Positions 1 through 25,515 of a stretch of DNA of 25,515 nucleotides are shown here, piece by piece. The notes beneath the pieces were generated by a model. That model saw only the letters and a program-made list of their open reading frames with translations, was not told the DNA's origin and ran no database searches. Source of the DNA: a virus (taxonomy: Duplodnaviria; Heunggongvirae; Uroviricota; Caudoviricetes); IMG/VR virus record IMGVR_UViG_2609459834_000009, positions 1 to 25,515 of that record. The stretch is one strand, 5' to 3'. Position numbers and translations under genes: made by a program. Position 1 is the first letter of the stretch, and each line of letters begins with the position of its first letter.

Positions 1-1053
1 TTACGGGGTAATGCCAACCGCTGCCGCCACTTTGTCGCCACTTGGCAGCGTTGCCAGAGGATTGAAACGGAGCGCCGTTTCCAGATGATCCGGTGCCAGA
101 TGTGCGTAACGCATAGTCATTTTTATATCGTGGTGTCCGAGAATTTTTTGTAAGGCCAGAATGTTTCCACCCGACATCATGAAGTGCGCCGCAAACGTAT
201 GGCGCAGAACGTGTGTGAGTTGACCGCGAGGGAGCACGATAGACGTTTTTTCCATCACGGATAAAAATTGAAAATAGCAGTCTGTGAAGAAATTGAACCC
301 ATCAAGCGCCATGATCTCTTCGTAAAGCTCTTTACTGATAGGGATGCTTCTGTTTTTCTTCCCCTTCGTTCTGACAAAGGTAATTCGGTATTTGGTCACC
401 TGTGAGCGGGTAAGATTTACGGCTTCACGCCAGCGTGCGCCTGTGCTTAAGCATATCTTAACTACCAGTGCCAGAATTGGGTCCTGACGTTTGCAATCAG
501 CCAGCAATTCAACAATCTGCTCATGGGTAAGCCATGCCATCTCTTTTTCTGCGATGGTGAATTTTCGCATGTTCTCCAGTGGGTTCGGATACGACCATTC
601 GCCCAGACGGGATAGTTCGCTAAAAACACTACTTAGATAGCTTTGCTCCAGGTTAATGGTGACCGGGCTTGCTCCTTTCTTCCATTTCTCGCTGAAGTAG
701 ATCTCGCCTGTCAGGCGTTTATCTCGATAGTGGGCAAACATTTTAGAGGTGAGATCGGTTGCAAGAGGATTGCCCAGAGCGTCAACCATCAACAGCAATT
801 TGTCATAGACATGCTGCCCAGCTGTCAGAGATTTACCATGTAGTTTGAACCATAGCTCAACCACGTCTTTCAGTGTTCGACGATCCACTGATTCACCCAG
901 CCAGGGCTTTGCTTCGGTTTCTTCCATCGTGTGGCGCTCAAAAGCCAGTGCTTCGCCTTTGGTGACGAATTGTTTACGCACACGACGCCCACTTCGTCCG
1001 GCGGGGTAACATTCGCAAAGCCATTTCCCAGTGGTGAGTTTTCGTACTGCCAT
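1..1053 (-). CDS. int: Tyrosine-type site-specific integrase (P2/186 family)
   Basis: Translation has the tyrosine recombinase C-terminal catalytic region (ARWREA, HVLRHTFA, MRYAHL). ORF is open to 1209, but the N-terminus aligns with P2 Int from the Met at 1051-1053 (MAVRKLTTGKW); upstream extension judged untranslated. Stop at 1-3. Confidence 0.85.
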   Translation of the reverse strand: MAVRKLTTGKWLCECYPAGRSGRRVRKQFVTKGEALAFERHTMEETEAKPWLGESVDRRTLKDVVELWFKLHGKSLTAGQHVYDKLLLMVDALGNPLATDLTSKMFAHYRDKRLTGEIYFSEKWKKGASPVTINLEQSYLSSVFSELSRLGEWSYPNPLENMRKFTIAEKEMAWLTHEQIVELLADCKRQDPILALVVKICLSTGARWREAVNLTRSQVTKYRITFVRTKGKKNRSIPISKELYEEIMALDGFNFFTDCYFQFLSVMEKTSIVLPRGQLTHVLRHTFAAHFMMSGGNILALQKILGHHDIKMTMRYAHLAPDHLETALRFNPLATLPSGDKVAAAVGITP

Positions 1054-1241
1054 AAAAAATGCCCTCCAGTAGAGAGCATTTTCACTGTATGTATAACCAG
1101 TGTCAATGTATGAAATTCTACGACCATACATCTCACTGAAGCCATAATTAAGTTGGCTATTCTTTTTGCTATGTGAGCATGTAACTTTTGCGGTTAACCT
1201 GCGGCTCATTTTTATTTTAGACGCAGATATAAAAGCAAAAG

Positions 1242-1433
1242 TTATCGTGAGTTTTTAGTACAGATTTTTTTGGATTTACTAATAGTTCCATCATTGCAAA
1301 CGAATTTGCCATCTGAGGTACAGTGAGAAACACCTCCCTTTTTCCCTGAGCAGGGATAATTTCTAGCATAGGTAGTTAGTGGGTTTAATAACAAAGAACA
1401 TGACAAAACCACAAAAAATACCTTACCAAGCAT
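1242..1433 (-). CDS. Small secreted cysteine-rich protein (hypothetical; possible moron)
   Basis: 63-aa ORF with ATG start and strong GGAGG RBS 5 nt upstream; N-terminal hydrophobic signal-like segment ([16 protein letters not shown]), four Cys in the mature part; lies in an AT-rich stretch between repressor and integrase on the same strand. Confidence 0.5.
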
Positions 1434-1448
1434 AGTTTCCTCCCGGTA

Positions 1449-2105
1449 CTATTTAACATACTTGACTGTTAAACTTATAATTTTACCAATTATTTCAATG
1501 TCTTCTATCTTGCATTCGAAGGCTCTGTTTCCACCCTCGACGAAGATTCTTCCACCGGGTAAACGAGTAATGTCACGGATCGTTATTTCGCCATCAATAC
1601 TTATTACCCATTTACCATCACGTATATCATCAAATTCTTTATCACAAATAAATTCAGAATTGTTATCTGTGATGACAAAAGGTTTTTTAAACGTAGAGGG
1701 TAGAAATCCCTTATCAAAAATATAAAAACCGTCTTTCTGCAATGCTCCATCAGACAATAAATATTTTTCTACTTCTATAGTATTTGTATTTGCTGATGCT
1801 TGCTTTGAACCATGCCCTGTTGTTAGCCAATTAAGCGAGGTGCCCGTTTCAAGGGCGCACTGGATTACCCAATCTGCTGGAAAAATATCACGCATATAGC
1901 GCGTTGCCATGGTGCTCTTAGAAACACCTAAATGATCACATAGAGCCTGACGGGTACCGAACCCATATGCTTCAACTAAACGTTCTATGGCTTTCTTACC
2001 GCCGCTATTGAAATCCACAAGTCCTCCAAAGAAATCCAAAATTCGTTGACAGATTCCAAAAGCGATCTTAAAGTTGAACCAGAAGTGTTCTTTTGGAGCC
2101 TTCAC
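1449..2105 (-). CDS. cI: CI-type immunity repressor (helix-turn-helix)
   Basis: HTH-like segment (GTRQALCDHLGVSKSTMATRYMRD) near the N-terminus; divergent from the Apl/Cox-like gene; immediately upstream of int on the same strand as in P2/186. Start at 2105 is GTG; a shorter product from an internal start is possible. Confidence 0.7.
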   Translation of the reverse strand: MKAPKEHFWFNFKIAFGICQRILDFFGGLVDFNSGGKKAIERLVEAYGFGTRQALCDHLGVSKSTMATRYMRDIFPADWVIQCALETGTSLNWLTTGHGSKQASANTNTIEVEKYLLSDGALQKDGFYIFDKGFLPSTFKKPFVITDNNSEFICDKEFDDIRDGKWVISIDGEITIRDITRLPGGRIFVEGGNRAFECKIEDIEIIGKIISLTVKYVK

Positions 2106-7650: not shown

Positions 7651-7839
7651 ATGCAGGACTATTTTTTGGAGTCTTTGAAGCTCCAGCGCATTGATTTTTT
7701 TCTTAAGCTTGTAGCGGCTAGTGAGTGTAGTGATGAAGAGAAGGGGCTGGCTTTGCAGTGGGTTTCTGAACTGACAGATGAACTCATGGCAAAAATCAGA
7801 ACCCACGAATACAACCGCTCAATGGATGTCATCAGCTGA
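7651..7839 (+). CDS. Small SOS-regulated hypothetical protein (first gene of tum-like module)
   Basis: 62-aa ORF, ATG at 7651 with AGGAGG RBS; ORF-track start 7549 rejected because it would read through the LexA box. Confidence 0.5.
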   Translation: MQDYFLESLKLQRIDFFLKLVAASECSDEEKGLALQWVSELTDELMAKIRTHEYNRSMDVIS

Positions 7840-7849
7840 GGTGACTTTT

Positions 7850-8083
7850 ATGCGCATTGAAATAATGATCGATAAAGAGCAGAAGATTAGCCAGTCTACC
7901 CTGGACGCCCTTGAATCCGAGCTTTACCGCAATCTGCGCCCTATGTATCCCAAAACGGTAATTCGTATCCGCAAAGGTAGCTCTAACGGTGTAGAACTTA
8001 CCGGATTGCAACTGGACGAAGAAAGAAAACAAGTGATGAAAATTATGCAGAAGGTGTGGGAAGACGACAGCTGGCTGCATTAA
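7850..8083 (+). CDS. DinI-family protein
   Basis: 77-aa product MRIEIMIDKEQ...VWEDDSWLH with the DinI N- and C-terminal signatures (MRIE..., WE.D.W); GAGGTG RBS. Confidence 0.75.
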   Translation: MRIEIMIDKEQKISQSTLDALESELYRNLRPMYPKTVIRIRKGSSNGVELTGLQLDEERKQVMKIMQKVWEDDSWLH

Positions 8084-8306: not shown

Positions 8307-8378
8307 CGCGCGCCATGTGGTATGGAGATTGGATCTATTCATAACTTGATGTATAAAGTAGAAAAAAGCGGGGAGATT

Positions 8379-9302
8379 ATGAATAAAAAATTTACCGATG
8401 AGCAGCAACAACAGCTTATAGGACATCTCACAAAGAAAGGCTTCTATCGAGGAGCTAATATTAAAATAACCATTTTTCTATGTGGTGGTGACGTTGCTAA
8501 TCATCAATCTTGGCGTCATCAATTATCACAATTTTTAGCAAAGTTCAGTGATGTTGATATATTTTATCCAGAAGATCTATTTGATGATCTTTTGGCTGGT
8601 CAAGGGCAGCATAGCCTTTTAAGTTTAGAAAATATTCTGGCTGAAGCTGTCGATGTAATAATTTTATTTCCTGAAAGTCCGGGGTCTTTCACAGAGCTTG
8701 GTGCGTTCTCTAATAATGAAAACTTAAGGAGAAAGTTGATTTGCATTCAAGATGCAAAATTTAAATCAAAACGTAGCTTTATTAACTATGGTCCTGTTCG
8801 CCTGTTGCGTAAGTTTAATTCAAAATCTGTTTTGCGTTGTAGTTCAAATGAACTAAAAGAAATGTGTGATTCATCTATTGATGTTGCCAGAAAATTACGA
8901 TTATATAAAAAATTAATGGCATCTATTAAGCAGGTTAGGAAAGAAAATAAAGTATCAAAAGATATTGGAAATATATTATACGCAGAGCGGTTTCTATTGC
9001 CTTGTATCTATTTACTGGATAGTGTCAACTACCGCACACTGTGTGAACTAGCTTTTAAAGCGATAAAGCAAGATGATGTTTTATCTAAAATTATTGTTAG
9101 ATCCGTTGTTTCTCGTCTAATAAATGAACGAAAAATACTTCAAATGACTGATGGTTATCAGGTCACTGCTTTGGGGGCTAGCTATGTTAGGAGCGTCTTT
9201 GATAGAAAGACACTTGACCGATTGCGGCTTGAGATTATGAATTTTGAAAACCGTAGAAAATCAACATTTAACTATGATAAGATTCCGTATGCGCACCCTT
9301 AG
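8379..9302 (+). CDS. Retron effector protein (putative nucleoside 2-deoxyribosyltransferase-like N-domain plus C-terminal domain)
   Basis: 308-aa ORF in AT-rich DNA immediately upstream of msr-msd; its stop codon (TAG 9300-9302) lies inside the a1 repeat. Start ambiguous (ATG at 8322, 8349 or 8379). Confidence 0.7.
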   Translation: MNKKFTDEQQQQLIGHLTKKGFYRGANIKITIFLCGGDVANHQSWRHQLSQFLAKFSDVDIFYPEDLFDDLLAGQGQHSLLSLENILAEAVDVIILFPESPGSFTELGAFSNNENLRRKLICIQDAKFKSKRSFINYGPVRLLRKFNSKSVLRCSSNELKEMCDSSIDVARKLRLYKKLMASIKQVRKENKVSKDIGNILYAERFLLPCIYLLDSVNYRTLCELAFKAIKQDDVLSKIIVRSVVSRLINERKILQMTDGYQVTALGASYVRSVFDRKTLDRLRLEIMNFENRRKSTFNYDKIPYAHP

Positions 9303-9464: not shown

Positions 9465-10427
9465 ATGAAATCCGCTGAATATTTGAACACTTTTAGATTG
9501 AGAAATCTCGGCCTACCTGTCATGAACAATTTGCATGACATGTCTAAGGCGACTCGCATATCTGTTGAAACACTTCGGTTGTTAATCTATACAGCTGATT
9601 TTCGCTATAGGATCTACACTGTAGAAAAGAAAGGCCCAGAGAAGAGAATGAGAACCATTTACCAACCTTCTCGAGAACTTAAAGCCTTACAAGGATGGGT
9701 TCTACGTAACATTTTAGATAAACTGTCGTCATCTCCTTTTTCTATTGGATTTGAAAAGCACCAATCTATTTTGAATAATGCTACCCCGCATATTGGGGCA
9801 AACTTTATACTGAATATTGATTTGGAGGATTTTTTCCCAAGTTTAACTGCTAACAAAGTTTTTGGAGTGTTCCATTCTCTTGGTTATAATCGACTAATAT
9901 CTTCAGTTTTGACAAAAATATGTTGTTATAAAAATCTGCTACCACAAGGTGCTCCATCATCACCTAAATTAGCTAATCTAATATGTTCTAAACTTGATTA
10001 TCGTATTCAGGGTTATGCAGGTAGTCGGGGCTTGATATATACGAGATATGCCGATGATCTCACCTTATCTGCACAGTCTATGAAAAAGGTTGTTAAAGCA
10101 CGTGATTTTTTATTTTCTATAATCCCAAGTGAAGGATTGGTTATTAACTCAAAAAAAACTTGTATTAGTGGGCCTCGTAGTCAGAGGAAAGTTACAGGTT
10201 TAGTTATTTCACAAGAGAAAGTTGGGATAGGTAGAGAAAAATATAAAGAAATTAGAGCAAAGATACATCATATATTTTGCGGTAAGTCTTCTGAGATAGA
10301 ACACGTTAGGGGATGGTTGTCATTTATTTTAAGTGTGGATTCAAAAAGCCATAGAAGATTAATAACTTATATTAGCAAATTAGAAAAAAAATATGGAAAG
10401 AACCCTTTAAATAAAGCGAAGACCTAA
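9465..10427 (+). CDS. ret: Retron-type reverse transcriptase
   Basis: 320-aa product with RT motifs QGAPSSPKLANL and YADD, plus the retron-characteristic VTG motif (RKVTGLVI). Confidence 0.9.
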   Translation: MKSAEYLNTFRLRNLGLPVMNNLHDMSKATRISVETLRLLIYTADFRYRIYTVEKKGPEKRMRTIYQPSRELKALQGWVLRNILDKLSSSPFSIGFEKHQSILNNATPHIGANFILNIDLEDFFPSLTANKVFGVFHSLGYNRLISSVLTKICCYKNLLPQGAPSSPKLANLICSKLDYRIQGYAGSRGLIYTRYADDLTLSAQSMKKVVKARDFLFSIIPSEGLVINSKKTCISGPRSQRKVTGLVISQEKVGIGREKYKEIRAKIHHIFCGKSSEIEHVRGWLSFILSVDSKSHRRLITYISKLEKKYGKNPLNKAKT

Positions 10428-24417: not shown

Positions 24418-25515
24418 TCAAGAGGCCTTATTTCTGCTCCTTTGGAGCTCTTCAAAACGATTATGTAAAGATTTCGGATACAGTTCGGTATATACCTGCC
24501 ATAGCACGTTTAATGAACGATGCCCTGTAACCTGGGCGACTTCCTCAATACTAAAACCAGCCTCAAATAAGCGACTTGCCCCTTCTCTACGCAAATCATG
24601 GTATCGCAGATCTTTAATACCTAATTTGCTTCTTACCCTCTGGAATCCCGCAGTAACAGAAGTGCTGTTATATGGAAAAATGAATTCTGATTTTTTGGGT
24701 TGTCGTTGGACGATATCCCAGGCTTCCCCAAGCAAGGCTACTTTCATATGGTTGCCTTCCTTTTTACGTGGATCTTTCCTGTCTCTTACGAGTATGGATT
24801 TTTGTTCCTGATCGAGATCCTCCCATCGTAATCGGCATACTTCACCGATTCGCATACATGACCACACAGAAAATTTGAGGATATCAACGAACGGAATTTT
24901 TGAGCATTTATGTGTAGATCGTTGTTGAAGACCTTCAATGAGCATGTCCAGTTCATCAGATGCCGGTCTACGATTACGACGATTTGATTTACCAATTAAA
25001 CCAAGTTTAAGTAGATATGGACGAGCGGCTTTTGCTGGGTTTGATGTGTAATTAATTCCATATACAGGTTTGGCAGCATCCAGAACACTGCCAAGATAAC
25101 TAACATCGTGGCTAACTGTAGCTGGACCTGCACCAGCGTTGTTTCTTAGCCTGCAATGTTCAATTACGTCATTTTCTGTCAGTTCAGATAGTTTGATCGC
25201 GGAGATGTCACTATCCATAAGCAGTTCCAGCACATATCTTTTAGTACGGCCTGCTTTACCTCCGGCATTTGGGTCATTTAAATATTTGTGTAGTAAGTCA
25301 CGGACTGTAAGTCCGTCAACTGCATTTGATGATGGAATGCCATATAGATCTAATTCCATCACTTTCTGTGTGCCCCATGTTTTGGCATGAGCATGTTTAG
25401 GGAATGTTTTACTTTCCCTGTAAGTGATAACACCTTTTTCTTTGATAATCACATTACAGCGATAGCGTGGTGTGCCATCGGATTTTAGTCGTTTCTCTAT
25501 GTTATAGTACGCCAT
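24418..25515 (-). CDS. Tyrosine-type integrase of a second integrative element (start at window edge; may be N-terminally incomplete)
   Basis: 365-aa translation with phage-integrase C-terminal catalytic region (HDLRREGASRL, ...VYTELYP); the ATG at 25513-25515 is the last codon of the window. Confidence 0.75.
   Translation of the reverse strand: MAYYNIEKRLKSDGTPRYRCNVIIKEKGVITYRESKTFPKHAHAKTWGTQKVMELDLYGIPSSNAVDGLTVRDLLHKYLNDPNAGGKAGRTKRYVLELLMDSDISAIKLSELTENDVIEHCRLRNNAGAGPATVSHDVSYLGSVLDAAKPVYGINYTSNPAKAARPYLLKLGLIGKSNRRNRRPASDELDMLIEGLQQRSTHKCSKIPFVDILKFSVWSCMRIGEVCRLRWEDLDQEQKSILVRDRKDPRKKEGNHMKVALLGEAWDIVQRQPKKSEFIFPYNSTSVTAGFQRVRSKLGIKDLRYHDLRREGASRLFEAGFSIEEVAQVTGHRSLNVLWQVYTELYPKSLHNRFEELQRSRNKAS

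What the first reader, a model, noticed from the sequence alone, without database searches (positions are those of the whole stretch)
1242..1433. Small secreted cysteine-rich ORF between repressor and integrase
A 63-aa ORF with a strong RBS, signal-peptide-like N-terminus and four cysteines sits in an AT-rich island within the lysogenic (cI-int) transcription unit. No gene occupies this position in P2. It would be expressed in lysogens and exported, which is the profile of a moron encoding a small toxin, bacteriocin-like or envelope-acting peptide.
Basis: seen in the sequence. Interest (0 to 1): 0.5.

Follow-up and report, generated by a model that had tools for sequence, protein, structure and literature searches.

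The report
Prophage-borne exported YdcA-family mini-protein
The ORF is a real, strongly conserved gene for a small exported, disulfide-rich, basic protein of the uncharacterised YdcA family, carried as extra cargo between the repressor and integrase genes of a 186/P2-like E. coli prophage; the family is already catalogued, its function is unknown, and nothing points to a toxin.

Summary
Window 1242-1433 (- strand) encodes 63 aa with a GGGAGG ribosome-binding site 5 nt upstream, 15 nt after the cI stop codon. It has an N-terminal signal peptide (predicted cut A23|R24). There are four invariant cysteines in the 40-aa mature part, and a fifth, unconserved one in the signal peptide.

It is a catalogued gene: NCBIfam NF007463 (above cutoff), RefSeq "YdcA family protein", PHROG 6000, Pfam PF27300. 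About 12% of complete E. coli genomes carry it. Variation is almost all synonymous (15 synonymous vs 2 non-synonymous variants).

The cI - ydcA-like - int order recurs in Yersinia and Pasteurellaceae prophages. In Haemophilus phage HP2 the gene is unannotated. Sister prophages carry known or candidate defence genes in the same slot (PD-Lambda-1, a KAP NTPase); P2, 186 and RE-2010 carry nothing there. So it is a moron inside the lysogenic operon.

Function is unknown. Leads are a basic mature peptide (net +7), N-terminal fusion of the domain to three unrelated secreted nuclease families, and probable homology to the lobes of Legionella Dis2. My best guess, at low confidence, is a periplasmic binder that protects the lysogen from incoming DNA. 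A toxin or bacteriocin role is not supported.

The parts
1242..1433 (-). ydcA-like gene: 63 codons plus TAA stop (precursor [23 protein letters not shown]|[40 protein letters not shown])
   Evidence: ORF list. NCBIfam NF007463 above cutoff. PHROG 6000. RefSeq WP_000900883.1 'YdcA family protein' at exactly these coordinates in an identical E. coli prophage. pN/pS about 0.04.
1365..1433 (-). Predicted Sec signal peptide, residues 1-23, signal peptidase I site T-Y-A|R
   Evidence: Signal peptides diverge freely among homologues, while the -1 Ala is invariant and -3 is always A/S/T/V. C12 is not in a lipobox and is not conserved. The prediction follows the (-3,-1) rule; SignalP was not available.
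1245..1364 (-). Mature 40-aa peptide (4.3 kDa, pI 9.7, net charge +7) holding the PF27300/YdcA core [11 protein letters not shown]-x7[15 protein letters not shown]
   Evidence: Invariant P27 C28 S29 K32 G33 G34 C38 F44 C46 D48 G49 S52 S54 K55 C58. Family-wide consensus and charge. AF2 core pLDDT 87-90 with two short strands.
1439..1444 (-). Shine-Dalgarno GGGAGG, 5 nt upstream of the ATG, inside the 15-nt gap after the cI stop codon
   Evidence: Read directly from the sequence.
1449..2018 (-). 186-type CI immunity repressor, the first gene of the lysogenic transcript (context)
   Evidence: Pfam Phage_CI_repr and Phage_CI_C. RefSeq coordinates.
1054..1241 (-). 188-nt spacer between the ydcA-like stop and the int start. 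No terminator-like site on the - strand. It holds a promoter-like site (TTGACA-17-GAAAAT, 1106-1078) and the int ribosome-binding site.
   Evidence: About 93% conserved between E. coli alleles. In strain FDAARGOS_1251 a KAP NTPase gene follows the ydcA-like gene ahead of int.
1..1053 (-). P2/186-type tyrosine integrase, the downstream gene of the same transcription unit (context)
   Evidence: Pfam Int_N and Phage_integrase. RefSeq coordinates; the prophage lies next to rcdA.

Best explanation
Identity (near certain): a prophage moron encoding a YdcA-family (Pfam PF27300, NCBIfam NF007463, PHROG 6000) exported mini-protein.

How it most likely works:
1. It is transcribed in lysogens as part of the leftward cI -> ydcA-like -> int transcript and translated from its own strong ribosome-binding site. 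This step is inferred from arrangement.
2. The 63-aa precursor is exported by Sec and cut after A23. This step is inferred from sequence rules and family conservation.
3. The 40-aa, net +7 peptide folds in the periplasm into a small beta-rich knot. Its four invariant cysteines are expected to form disulfides, by analogy with the disulfide-pinned lobes of Legionella Dis2.
4. There it binds a conserved anionic target. My best guess (roughly 25-30%) is that the target is nucleic acid in transit through the envelope, or an outer-membrane-proximal structure that the DNA passes. The peptide would then act as a superinfection-exclusion or anti-DNA-entry factor that benefits the lysogen.

Step 4 rests on three things: the domain is fused to three unrelated secreted nuclease families, the family is consistently positively charged, and the gene sits in a cargo slot that carries anti-phage genes in sister prophages.
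For: Gene reality and family:
- (63/63-aa homologues, all carrying PF27300).
- 632 of 5426 complete E. coli genomes carry it at >=90% nucleotide identity.
- 440 IMG/VR contigs encode a relative.
- 15 synonymous vs 2 non-synonymous variants.

Operon membership:
- 15-nt gap after cI and no same-strand terminator-like site between cI and int.
- The HP2 homologue's ATG overlaps the cI stop codon.
- The same order occurs in Yersinia (three species), a Pasteurellaceae genome and Buttiauxella.
- The phage 186 record annotates pL -> cI -> int -> orf69 as the lysogenic operon.

Export: invariant A at -1, divergent hydrophobic leaders, conserved mature part.

Fold and disulfides:
- The only PDB relative is Dis2 (7MUC chain AN): phmmer E 3e-5, mature part alone 2.2e-4, profile 6e-5.
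- Dis2 is the top Foldseek hit.
- A Dis2 homologue carries PF27300.
- Dis2 lobes are pinned by disulfides and sit next to the outer membrane (PMC8486379).

Target guess:
- PF27300 is fused N-terminally to Endonuclease_NS (10 of the best 120 hits; 3 of 149 representatives).
- It is also fused to an SNase and to a PLD-type nuclease.
- 222 of 230 distinct domains carry a net positive charge.

Cargo slot:
- PD-Lambda-1 occupies the same slot in phage vB_EcoM-813R9.
- A KAP NTPase (PADLOC candidate PDC-S20) sits beside the ydcA-like gene in strain FDAARGOS_1251.

Spread on mobile elements: Moraxella, Acinetobacter and Haemophilus phages and 3.9-kb mobilisable Acinetobacter plasmids.
Against: - No experiment or database entry assigns any function to the family. 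K-12 YdcA is described as 'of unknown function' as late as 2024 (PMC11340327).
- The ORF matches no PADLOC defence model.
- Nuclease fusions are a minority architecture. They could equally mean that the domain anchors enzymes to the envelope rather than binding DNA.
- The Dis2 link is statistically modest: individual domain E-values are 0.15 and 12, hhalign probability is 54%, and Foldseek E is 0.5. In the secretion system Dis2 contacts proteins (DotC, DotD, DotK), not DNA.
- Gene neighbourhoods outside prophages are heterogeneous, with 78 Pfam families among the 150 immediate neighbours scanned.
- A chromosomal paralogue argues that the family is not intrinsically anti-phage.
- Neither transcription from pL nor export was shown.
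Confidence: 0.5

Rival explanations
1. Envelope-complex adaptor. Like a single Dis2 lobe, the mature peptide docks onto outer-membrane lipoproteins or an outer-membrane-spanning machine (a secretin, a conjugation or type IV system, or a phage receptor). It changes that machine's activity or accessibility without touching DNA.
For: Dis2 is the only solved relative. It binds DotC, DotD and DotK close to the outer membrane. UniRef calls some members 'Conjugal transfer protein'. In a 3.9-kb MOBQ plasmid the homologue sits directly after a gene annotated TraD.
Against: There are no dot/icm or tra genes near the window gene or near most family members. Dis2 itself is dispensable for assembly of the secretion system and has only subtle effects. 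This reading does not explain the fusions to three nuclease families.
Confidence: 0.2
2. Host-fitness factor. The prophage copy acts as an extra dose or variant of chromosomal YdcA and improves envelope or acid/organic-acid stress tolerance of the lysogen, unrelated to phage or DNA.
For: The mature core is 26/33 identical to chromosomal YdcA. Deleting ydcA sensitised E. coli W to 300 mM 3-hydroxypropionate. That paper's authors cite earlier work for ydcA induction at pH 5 under YdcI control (PMC7642389).
Against: That phenotype was suppressed by a yieP deletion, and its mechanism is unknown. The strong enrichment of the family on phages and small plasmids and the defence-type neighbours are not explained by this reading.
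Confidence: 0.15
3. Periplasmic metal-binding or redox mini-protein. The Cys/His motif (C-x9-HC...) binds copper or zinc, or shuttles electrons.
For: H37 is conserved next to C38. Some chromosomal homologues lie next to cytochrome b561 (5 neighbours), PepSY_TM (3) or DUF2946 (3) genes. There is a weak NCBIfam hit to the lpg1681 family (E 0.11).
Against: The equivalent cysteines in Dis2 form disulfides with clear density. The His is a Tyr in Dis2. The neighbour associations are few. The lpg1681 hit is not significant.
Confidence: 0.05
4. One reading: a secreted small toxin or bacteriocin-like peptide that acts on other cells.
For: It is small, cationic, cysteine-rich and carried on a mobile element.
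Against: It has a Sec leader rather than a double-glycine leader. No immunity, modification or export genes occur in any context. A chromosomal paralogue is a standing gene in Escherichia and Shigella. The domain occurs as an N-terminal module of larger enzymes.
Confidence: 0.03
5. Periplasmic protease inhibitor related to plant Pin-II (potato type II) inhibitors.
For: There are repeated weak PDB matches to Pin-II inhibitors over residues 27-62 (E 0.07-1.8).
Against: None is significant. All come from one family, so they are not independent. The Pin-II eight-cysteine pattern is not matched and C38 does not align to a Cys. The profile search weakens the match (E 0.53).
Confidence: 0.03

Closest known systems
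E. coli K-12 YdcA (b1419; 57-aa predicted periplasmic protein, NCBIfam NF007462 / PRK10040)
   Same: Same family and architecture: a Sec leader followed by a ~35-aa four-Cys basic core. The cores are 26/33 identical. Neither has a known function.
   Different: The window protein belongs to the sister model NF007463. It scores 68.5 bits on the K-12 model against a cutoff of 118. It is prophage-borne inside the cI-int operon, not chromosomal between hokB and cybB. The signal peptides are unrelated.
PHROG 6000 / unannotated ORF of Haemophilus phage HP2 and S2 (L001 2920-3102)
   Same: A P2-like phage, with the gene directly after cI and upstream of int on the same strand, a Sec leader and an identical core motif [12 protein letters not shown]...F(I/V)CNDG.
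   Different: The HP2 start codon overlaps the cI stop codon. A second exported protein, orf1(S), lies between it and int. The gene is not annotated in the HP2 record. The CI proteins are only distantly related (E 3e-31).
[quoted passage not shown]
   Same: Each of its two lobes has the pattern C-x3-GG-[VI]-x-x-C...G-x-[LV]-V-C-N-[DN]-G-x-x-S...C. It is exported, disulfide-pinned and sits next to the outer membrane. A Dis2 homologue carries Pfam PF27300.
   Different: Dis2 is a tandem duplication with extra cysteines (five disulfides) and is part of a secretion machine. The window protein is a single domain in a prophage with no secretion-system genes. The similarity is modest (E 3e-5 to 2e-4; hhalign 54%).
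Secreted nucleases with an N-terminal PF27300 domain (PF27300 + Endonuclease_NS, SNase or PLD-like Nuc)
   Same: Same signal peptide plus YdcA core, e.g. ...[33 protein letters not shown]....
   Different: In those proteins the domain is an accessory module joined by a Ser/Thr/Glu-rich linker to a catalytic domain. The window protein is the module alone.
Prophage-encoded envelope superinfection-exclusion proteins (P1 Sim, T4 Sp, T5 Llp, Cor) - comparison from general knowledge, not a tool result
   Same: Small exported proteins made by a resident phage that act in the periplasm or at the outer membrane. This is the functional class I consider most likely.
   Different: No sequence or profile similarity was found (no PADLOC hit, Pfam empty, PHROG category 'unknown function'). 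No exclusion phenotype is known.

Membership tests
YdcA family (NCBIfam NF007463 / PRK10040.1-2; Pfam PF27300; PHROG 6000) | Profile score above the curated cutoff over the full length | tested here: met
   NF007463: 115.8 bits against a cutoff of 93, residues 5-63 matching model positions 1-58 of 58. phrog_6000: E 1.9e-34. All close homologues carry precomputed PF27300. PF27300 itself is absent from the local Pfam copy.
YdcA family (NCBIfam NF007463 / PRK10040.1-2; Pfam PF27300; PHROG 6000) | Four-cysteine core C-S-G-x-K-G-G-[IV]-S-H-C-x6/7-F-[VI]-C-N-D-G-x-x-S-x-S-K-K-x-C | tested here: met
   All consensus positions are present (C28...C58). They are invariant in 22 homologues, and the consensus comes from 230 distinct domains.
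YdcA family (NCBIfam NF007463 / PRK10040.1-2; Pfam PF27300; PHROG 6000) | N-terminal Sec signal peptide with a signal peptidase I site just before the core | tested here: met
   K4, a 12-residue hydrophobic core and T-Y-A|R. The -1 Ala is invariant and -3 is small in all homologues. This is rule-based; no SignalP run was possible.
YdcA family (NCBIfam NF007463 / PRK10040.1-2; Pfam PF27300; PHROG 6000) | Periplasmic location and disulfide-bonded mature form | not testable with these tools
   Needs fractionation, a PhoA fusion and mass spectrometry.
K-12 YdcA orthologue (NCBIfam NF007462 equivalog) | Score above the equivalog cutoff and a chromosomal hokB-ydcA-cybB context | tested here: not met
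   68.5 bits against a cutoff of 118. The context is cI-int of a prophage, whereas the true ydcA lies between hokB and cybB.
Dis2 (Dot/Icm outer-membrane-cap subunit) | Detectable sequence or fold similarity to Dis2 lobes | tested here: inconclusive
Dis2 (Dot/Icm outer-membrane-cap subunit) | Two-lobe tandem architecture with five disulfides | tested here: not met
   The mature product is a single 40-aa domain with four cysteines.
Dis2 (Dot/Icm outer-membrane-cap subunit) | Encoded in a genome with, and assembled into, a type IVB secretion system | tested here: not met
   The window is a P2/186-like prophage. The annotated genes of the lysogeny and early region and its chromosomal flank include no dot/icm or tra genes, and none were identified among the other window ORFs scanned.
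Prophage superinfection-exclusion / anti-phage defence proteins | Similarity to a catalogued defence or exclusion protein | tested here: not met
   No PADLOC family at E <= 1e-3. PHROG category 'unknown function'.
Prophage superinfection-exclusion / anti-phage defence proteins | Located in a prophage cargo slot that carries defence genes in related phages and is expressed with the lysogeny genes | tested here: met
   PD-Lambda-1 (E 3e-120) occupies the same cI-int slot in vB_EcoM-813R9. A KAP NTPase (PDC-S20, E 2e-171) lies beside the ydcA-like gene in FDAARGOS_1251. Same strand and no terminator. Expression itself was not tested.
Prophage superinfection-exclusion / anti-phage defence proteins | Protection phenotype against infecting phage | not testable with these tools
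   Needs plating-efficiency and DNA-entry assays.
Bacteriocin / microcin | Double-glycine or dedicated leader, with linked immunity and export or maturation genes | tested here: not met
   The leader is Sec-type with an A-x-A-like site. The neighbours are cI and int only, or a KAP NTPase. No such genes appear among the 150 immediate neighbours scanned, drawn from the 80 species-level loci.
Bacterial lipoprotein | Lipobox [LVI][ASTVI][GAS]C at the end of the signal peptide, with a conserved Cys at +1 | tested here: not met
   C12 is preceded by V-L-S, only 11 residues from the N-terminus. It is not conserved in homologues, which instead conserve the A|x site at residue 23.
Pin-II (potato type II) protease inhibitors | Significant similarity and the eight-cysteine framework | tested here: not met
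   Best E 0.07-0.24, worse with the family profile (0.53). Only three of the four Cys align.

The most novel reading that the evidence does not exclude
YdcA/PF27300 mini-proteins are a widespread class of periplasmic nucleic-acid-binding (or DNA-entry-blocking) modules that has not been recognised. Phages, small plasmids and some chromosomes would deploy the stand-alone form to intercept incoming DNA: superinfecting phage genomes, or transforming DNA in naturally competent hosts such as Haemophilus, Moraxella, Acinetobacter and Neisseria. Secreted nucleases would have recruited the same module as their DNA-binding domain, and Legionella Dis2 would be a duplicated, co-opted copy.
Probability: 0.15. 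Interest if true: 0.7.

Novelty: new member of a known kind. Interest (0 to 1): 0.35.

Why it matters
As it stands this is a routine result.

The value lies in what the comparison turned up.
- A 30-residue disulfide core is kept almost unchanged across Gamma-, Beta- and Alphaproteobacteria and their phages and plasmids.
- It sits in the lysogeny operon of roughly one in eight sequenced E. coli genomes.
- It shares its slot with validated anti-phage genes.
- It is fused to three kinds of secreted nuclease.
- It appears to be the building block of Dis2, a secretion-system subunit that the literature calls Legionella-specific.

Together these make a short, synthesisable peptide a cheap experimental entry point into the function of YdcA, of PHROG 6000 and possibly of Dis2.

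Tried and rejected
- Local Pfam scan of the ORF: only a sub-threshold hit to GULLO2-like_3rd (E 0.075). PF27300 is too new for the local copy.
- PADLOC: no hit for the ORF.
- Rfam on the whole window: no family, so there is no known RNA element in the spacer.
- Terminator and promoter scan: no same-strand terminator-like site between cI and int, and no promoter-like site immediately upstream of the ORF. The hairpin at 1188-1204 has its T-run on the opposite strand.
- Gene-neighbourhood census of 80 species-level loci: no conserved partner gene apart from cI and int (5 loci) and cytochrome b561 (5 loci), so guilt by association gives no function.
- Literature: nothing on the prophage gene. K-12 ydcA is mentioned only in passing. 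The review of P2-like regulatory regions returned no hits for any of the terms I searched for cargo between cI and int.
- Rejected readings: lipoprotein (no lipobox), bacteriocin (no leader, immunity or export genes), Pin-II inhibitor (not significant), spurious ORF (pN/pS about 0.04), and the overlapping 50-aa ORF at 1217-1369 (no support).

Full report

The ORF is there. Window 1242..1433 on the - strand encodes 63 aa: [63 protein letters not shown]. On that strand the cI stop codon (TAG, 1451-1449) is followed after 15 nt by the ATG. Those 15 nt contain GGGAGG, 5 nt from the start codon.

- a 186-type CI repressor (Pfam Phage_CI_repr and Phage_CI_C) at 1449-2018;
- a P2/186-type integrase at 1-1053, on the same strand;
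- an Apl/Cox-like gene and a CII (CP76) gene on the other strand.

Two details need correcting. First, the precursor has five cysteines. C12 lies in the leader and is not conserved, while four (C28, C38, C46, C58) lie in the mature part and are invariant. Second, the AT-rich stretch (GC 0.29-0.39) runs from about 1100 to 1900 and includes the 3' half of cI, so it does not single out this ORF. The comparison with P2 is right. P2 C and int are 115 bp apart with no gene between them, and in phage 186 cI and int overlap by one base.

**2. Is it a gene?**

Yes, beyond reasonable doubt.
- It scores above the curated cutoff of NCBIfam NF007463 (115.8 bits against 93, E 5e-34) and matches PHROG 6000 at E 2e-34.
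- In an identical E. coli prophage next to rcdA, RefSeq annotates exactly these coordinates as 'YdcA family protein', WP_000900883.1.
- The 192-nt gene is found at >=90% identity in 632 of 5426 complete E. coli genomes. Relatives occur on 440 IMG/VR viral contigs.
- Among 82 copies there are nine alleles, with 15 synonymous and only 2 non-synonymous segregating variants: T20A in the leader and R24K. With 43 synonymous and 146 non-synonymous sites this gives pN/pS of about 0.04.
- Between the window and strain ACN002, 12 codons differ and 11 of the differences are silent.

**3. What the protein looks like**

Aligned homologues have freely diverging hydrophobic leaders that all end in a small residue at -3 and an invariant Ala at -1. 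This is followed by an almost unchanged core, (N)[13 protein letters not shown][19 protein letters not shown].

A search of 1.84 billion representative proteins finds 441 family representatives. Across 230 distinct domains the consensus is C-S-G-x-K-G-G-[IV]-S-H-C-x6/7-F-V-C-N-D-G-S-x-S-x-S-K-[KR]-x-C. Of these, 222 carry a net positive charge.

The predicted mature peptide is 40 aa and 4.3 kDa, with pI 9.7 and net charge +7. C12 is not in a lipobox, and the conserved cleavage site is at residue 23, so this is a signal peptidase I substrate and not a lipoprotein. AlphaFold2 with 21 sequences gives a modest model: mean pLDDT 75, 87-90 in the core, with two short strands.

**4. Relatives with any structural or functional information**

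The only solved relative is Legionella pneumophila Dis2 (Lpg0823), chain AN of 7MUC. The statistics are:

| Comparison | Result |
|---|---|
| phmmer, full-length query | E 3e-5 |
| phmmer, mature peptide only | E 2.2e-4 |
| Family profile | E 6.4e-5 |
| Foldseek vs PDB | first-ranked hit, E 0.5, probability 0.77 |
| hhalign vs a Dis2 homologue | 54%, E 1.3e-4 |

In addition, a Dis2 homologue from the protein collection carries the same precomputed Pfam domain, PF27300. I therefore call the homology probable.

K-12 YdcA, the chromosomal paralogue (26/33 identical in the core), is described in 2024 as a 57-aa predicted periplasmic protein of unknown function (PMC11340327). The only phenotype I found is sensitivity of a ydcA deletion in E. 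coli W to 3-hydroxypropionate. The authors of that paper cite earlier work for acid induction of ydcA (PMC7642389).

**5. Genomic setting: a cargo slot in the lysogenic operon**

No terminator-like site on the - strand lies between the cI stop and the int start. The phage 186 record annotates pL -> cI -> int -> orf69 -> terminator as 'the lysogenic operon', with pL active when CI represses pR. A gene placed between cI and int on the same strand should therefore be made in lysogens. This is an inference from arrangement, not a measurement.

The same order, cI then a ydcA-like gene then int, recurs elsewhere:
- three Yersinia species (47-nt gap after cI);
- a Pasteurellaceae genome, where the gene follows cI directly but no int homologue was detected downstream within the stretch held;
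- Buttiauxella, with one extra gene between cI and the ydcA-like gene, and no int homologue detected downstream;
- Haemophilus phages HP2 and S2. In HP2 the 60-aa gene (L001 2920-3102) is not annotated, and its ATG overlaps the cI stop codon.

The slot is variable in close relatives:

| Phage or strain | Content of the cI-int slot |
|---|---|
| vB_EcoM-813R9 (int 97.6% identical in DNA, same rcdA site) | 558-aa PD-Lambda-1 protein (PADLOC E 3e-120) |
| E. coli FDAARGOS_1251 | ydcA-like gene followed by a KAP NTPase (PDC-S20, E 2e-171) |
| Klebsiella phage 4LV2017 | 349-aa protein of unknown function |
| P2, 186, Salmonella RE-2010 | nothing |

This is the behaviour of a moron or defence hotspot.

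Outside the P2-like phages the family also travels on other mobile elements. In Moraxella and Acinetobacter phages it sits among structural genes. It also occurs on plasmids, including a 3.9-kb MOBQ Acinetobacter plasmid with only five genes. Chromosomal contexts are heterogeneous. The 150 immediate neighbours scanned from the 80 species-level loci match 78 Pfam families. Only cI plus int (5 loci) and cytochrome b561 (5 loci) recur.

**6. Clues to mechanism**

The most informative clue is domain fusion. The signal peptide plus YdcA core is found at the N-terminus of secreted nucleases from three unrelated superfamilies:
- Endonuclease_NS (3 of 149 representatives; 10 of the best 120 hits in the larger collection, from many independent contigs);
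- a staphylococcal-type nuclease;
- a PLD-type Nuc-like protein.

There are also tandem two- and three-copy forms. Combined with the conserved positive charge and the invariant S-x-S-K-K motif, this suggests a module that binds a polyanion. DNA is the obvious candidate. An envelope anchor (LPS or phospholipid head groups, or an outer-membrane-proximal protein as for Dis2) is the main alternative.

**7. Best explanation and rivals**

What is shown:
- it is a real, selected gene;
- it is a YdcA/PF27300 family member;
- it lies in a variable cargo slot on the lysogenic strand of a 186-like prophage.

What is inferred from sequence rules:
- Sec export and cleavage at A23|R24;
- two disulfides in the mature peptide.

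What is a guess (about 25-30%): the peptide binds nucleic acid, or the envelope route that DNA takes, and protects the lysogen from incoming DNA.

Rivals:
- a Dis2-like adaptor for an envelope machine or receptor (0.2);
- a host stress-fitness factor like chromosomal ydcA (0.15);
- a metal or redox protein (0.05);
- a protease inhibitor (0.03), because the Pin-II matches are not significant;
Against this last reading: the leader is Sec-type, no immunity or export genes are present, and a chromosomal paralogue is a standing gene in Escherichia and Shigella.

**8. Novelty and score**

The gene and its family are already in RefSeq, NCBIfam, Pfam and PHROGs, so this is a new member of a known, uncharacterised kind. 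I did not find the following in the papers I read:
- the recurrent placement in the cI-int operon across Enterobacterales and Pasteurellales;
- the missing annotation in HP2;
- the nuclease fusions;
- the probable relationship to Dis2.

These are leads, not demonstrations. Interest: 0.35.

Noticed in passing
window 8322-9302 (+) and 9465-10427 (+): A type II-A retron sits in the cargo region between the replication gene and the portal gene. A 326-aa protein matches PADLOC NDT_II-A (E 4e-94), followed by a 320-aa reverse transcriptase (RT_II-A, E 7e-128; Pfam RVT_1). The msr/msd RNA would be expected just upstream, but Rfam found nothing at gathering threshold.
   Followed up: partly
window 7778-8083 (+): A DinI-like protein (Pfam DinI, E 2e-22) lies just upstream of the retron.
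   Followed up: no
window 24418-25515 (-): A second tyrosine recombinase ORF (365 aa, Phage_integrase domain, E 1e-20) lies at the far end of the window, distinct from the prophage integrase at 1-1053.
   Followed up: no
window 1453-1481 (+): A near-consensus sigma-70 promoter-like site (TTAACA-17-TATAAT, 11 of 12) sits in the cI/ydcA-like junction, pointing antisense into the 3' end of cI. It may be chance in AT-rich DNA.
   Followed up: no
L001 2920-3102 (Haemophilus phage HP2, NC_003315 record 2486-2668, complement): An unannotated 60-aa YdcA-family gene ([60 protein letters not shown]). Its ATG overlaps the cI stop codon. The same match is present in phage S2.
   Followed up: yes
L001 3112-3876 (HP2 orf1(S)): The gene after the HP2 ydcA-like ORF also starts with a signal-peptide-like N-terminus. 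It matches Pfam tRNA_anti-like, an OB-fold family (E 3e-13), so it is a second exported protein in the HP2 lysogenic operon.
   Followed up: partly
L168 3776-5452 (phage vB_EcoM-813R9); L006 1142-2473 (E. coli FDAARGOS_1251): The cI-int gap of 186-like prophages is a variable cargo slot. It holds PD-Lambda-1 (E 3e-120) in one sister phage, and a KAP NTPase (PADLOC PDC-S20, E 2e-171) next to the ydcA-like gene in another. It is empty in P2, 186 and RE-2010.
   Followed up: yes
proteins P0242, P0311, P0330, P0205, P0165 (Endonuclease_NS); P0119 (SNase); P0204 (PLD-like): The YdcA/PF27300 domain occurs as the N-terminal module of secreted nucleases from three unrelated superfamilies. It also occurs as two- and three-copy tandem proteins (P0081, P0083, P0085).
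   Followed up: partly
PDB 7MUC chain AN; proteins P0345, P0346: Legionella Dis2 is described in the literature as Legionella-specific with no structural neighbours. It looks like a tandem duplication of the YdcA/PF27300 domain.
   Followed up: partly
L173 728-904 (Acinetobacter pittii plasmid pApiMCR53a, 3916 bp): A YdcA-family gene is one of only five genes on a tiny MOBQ mobilisable plasmid, directly after a gene annotated TraD. 29 of the 57 plasmid records with a match are from Acinetobacter.
   Followed up: no
L008 (JAEWTL010000113.1, 3057 bp, labelled 'MAG: Bacillota bacterium'): This contig carries a cI - ydcA-like - int segment in which the ydcA-like gene product is 100% identical to the window's, and CI and Int match at E 3e-113 and 8e-242. 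It is probably a mis-binned enterobacterial contig rather than a Bacillota gene.
   Followed up: no
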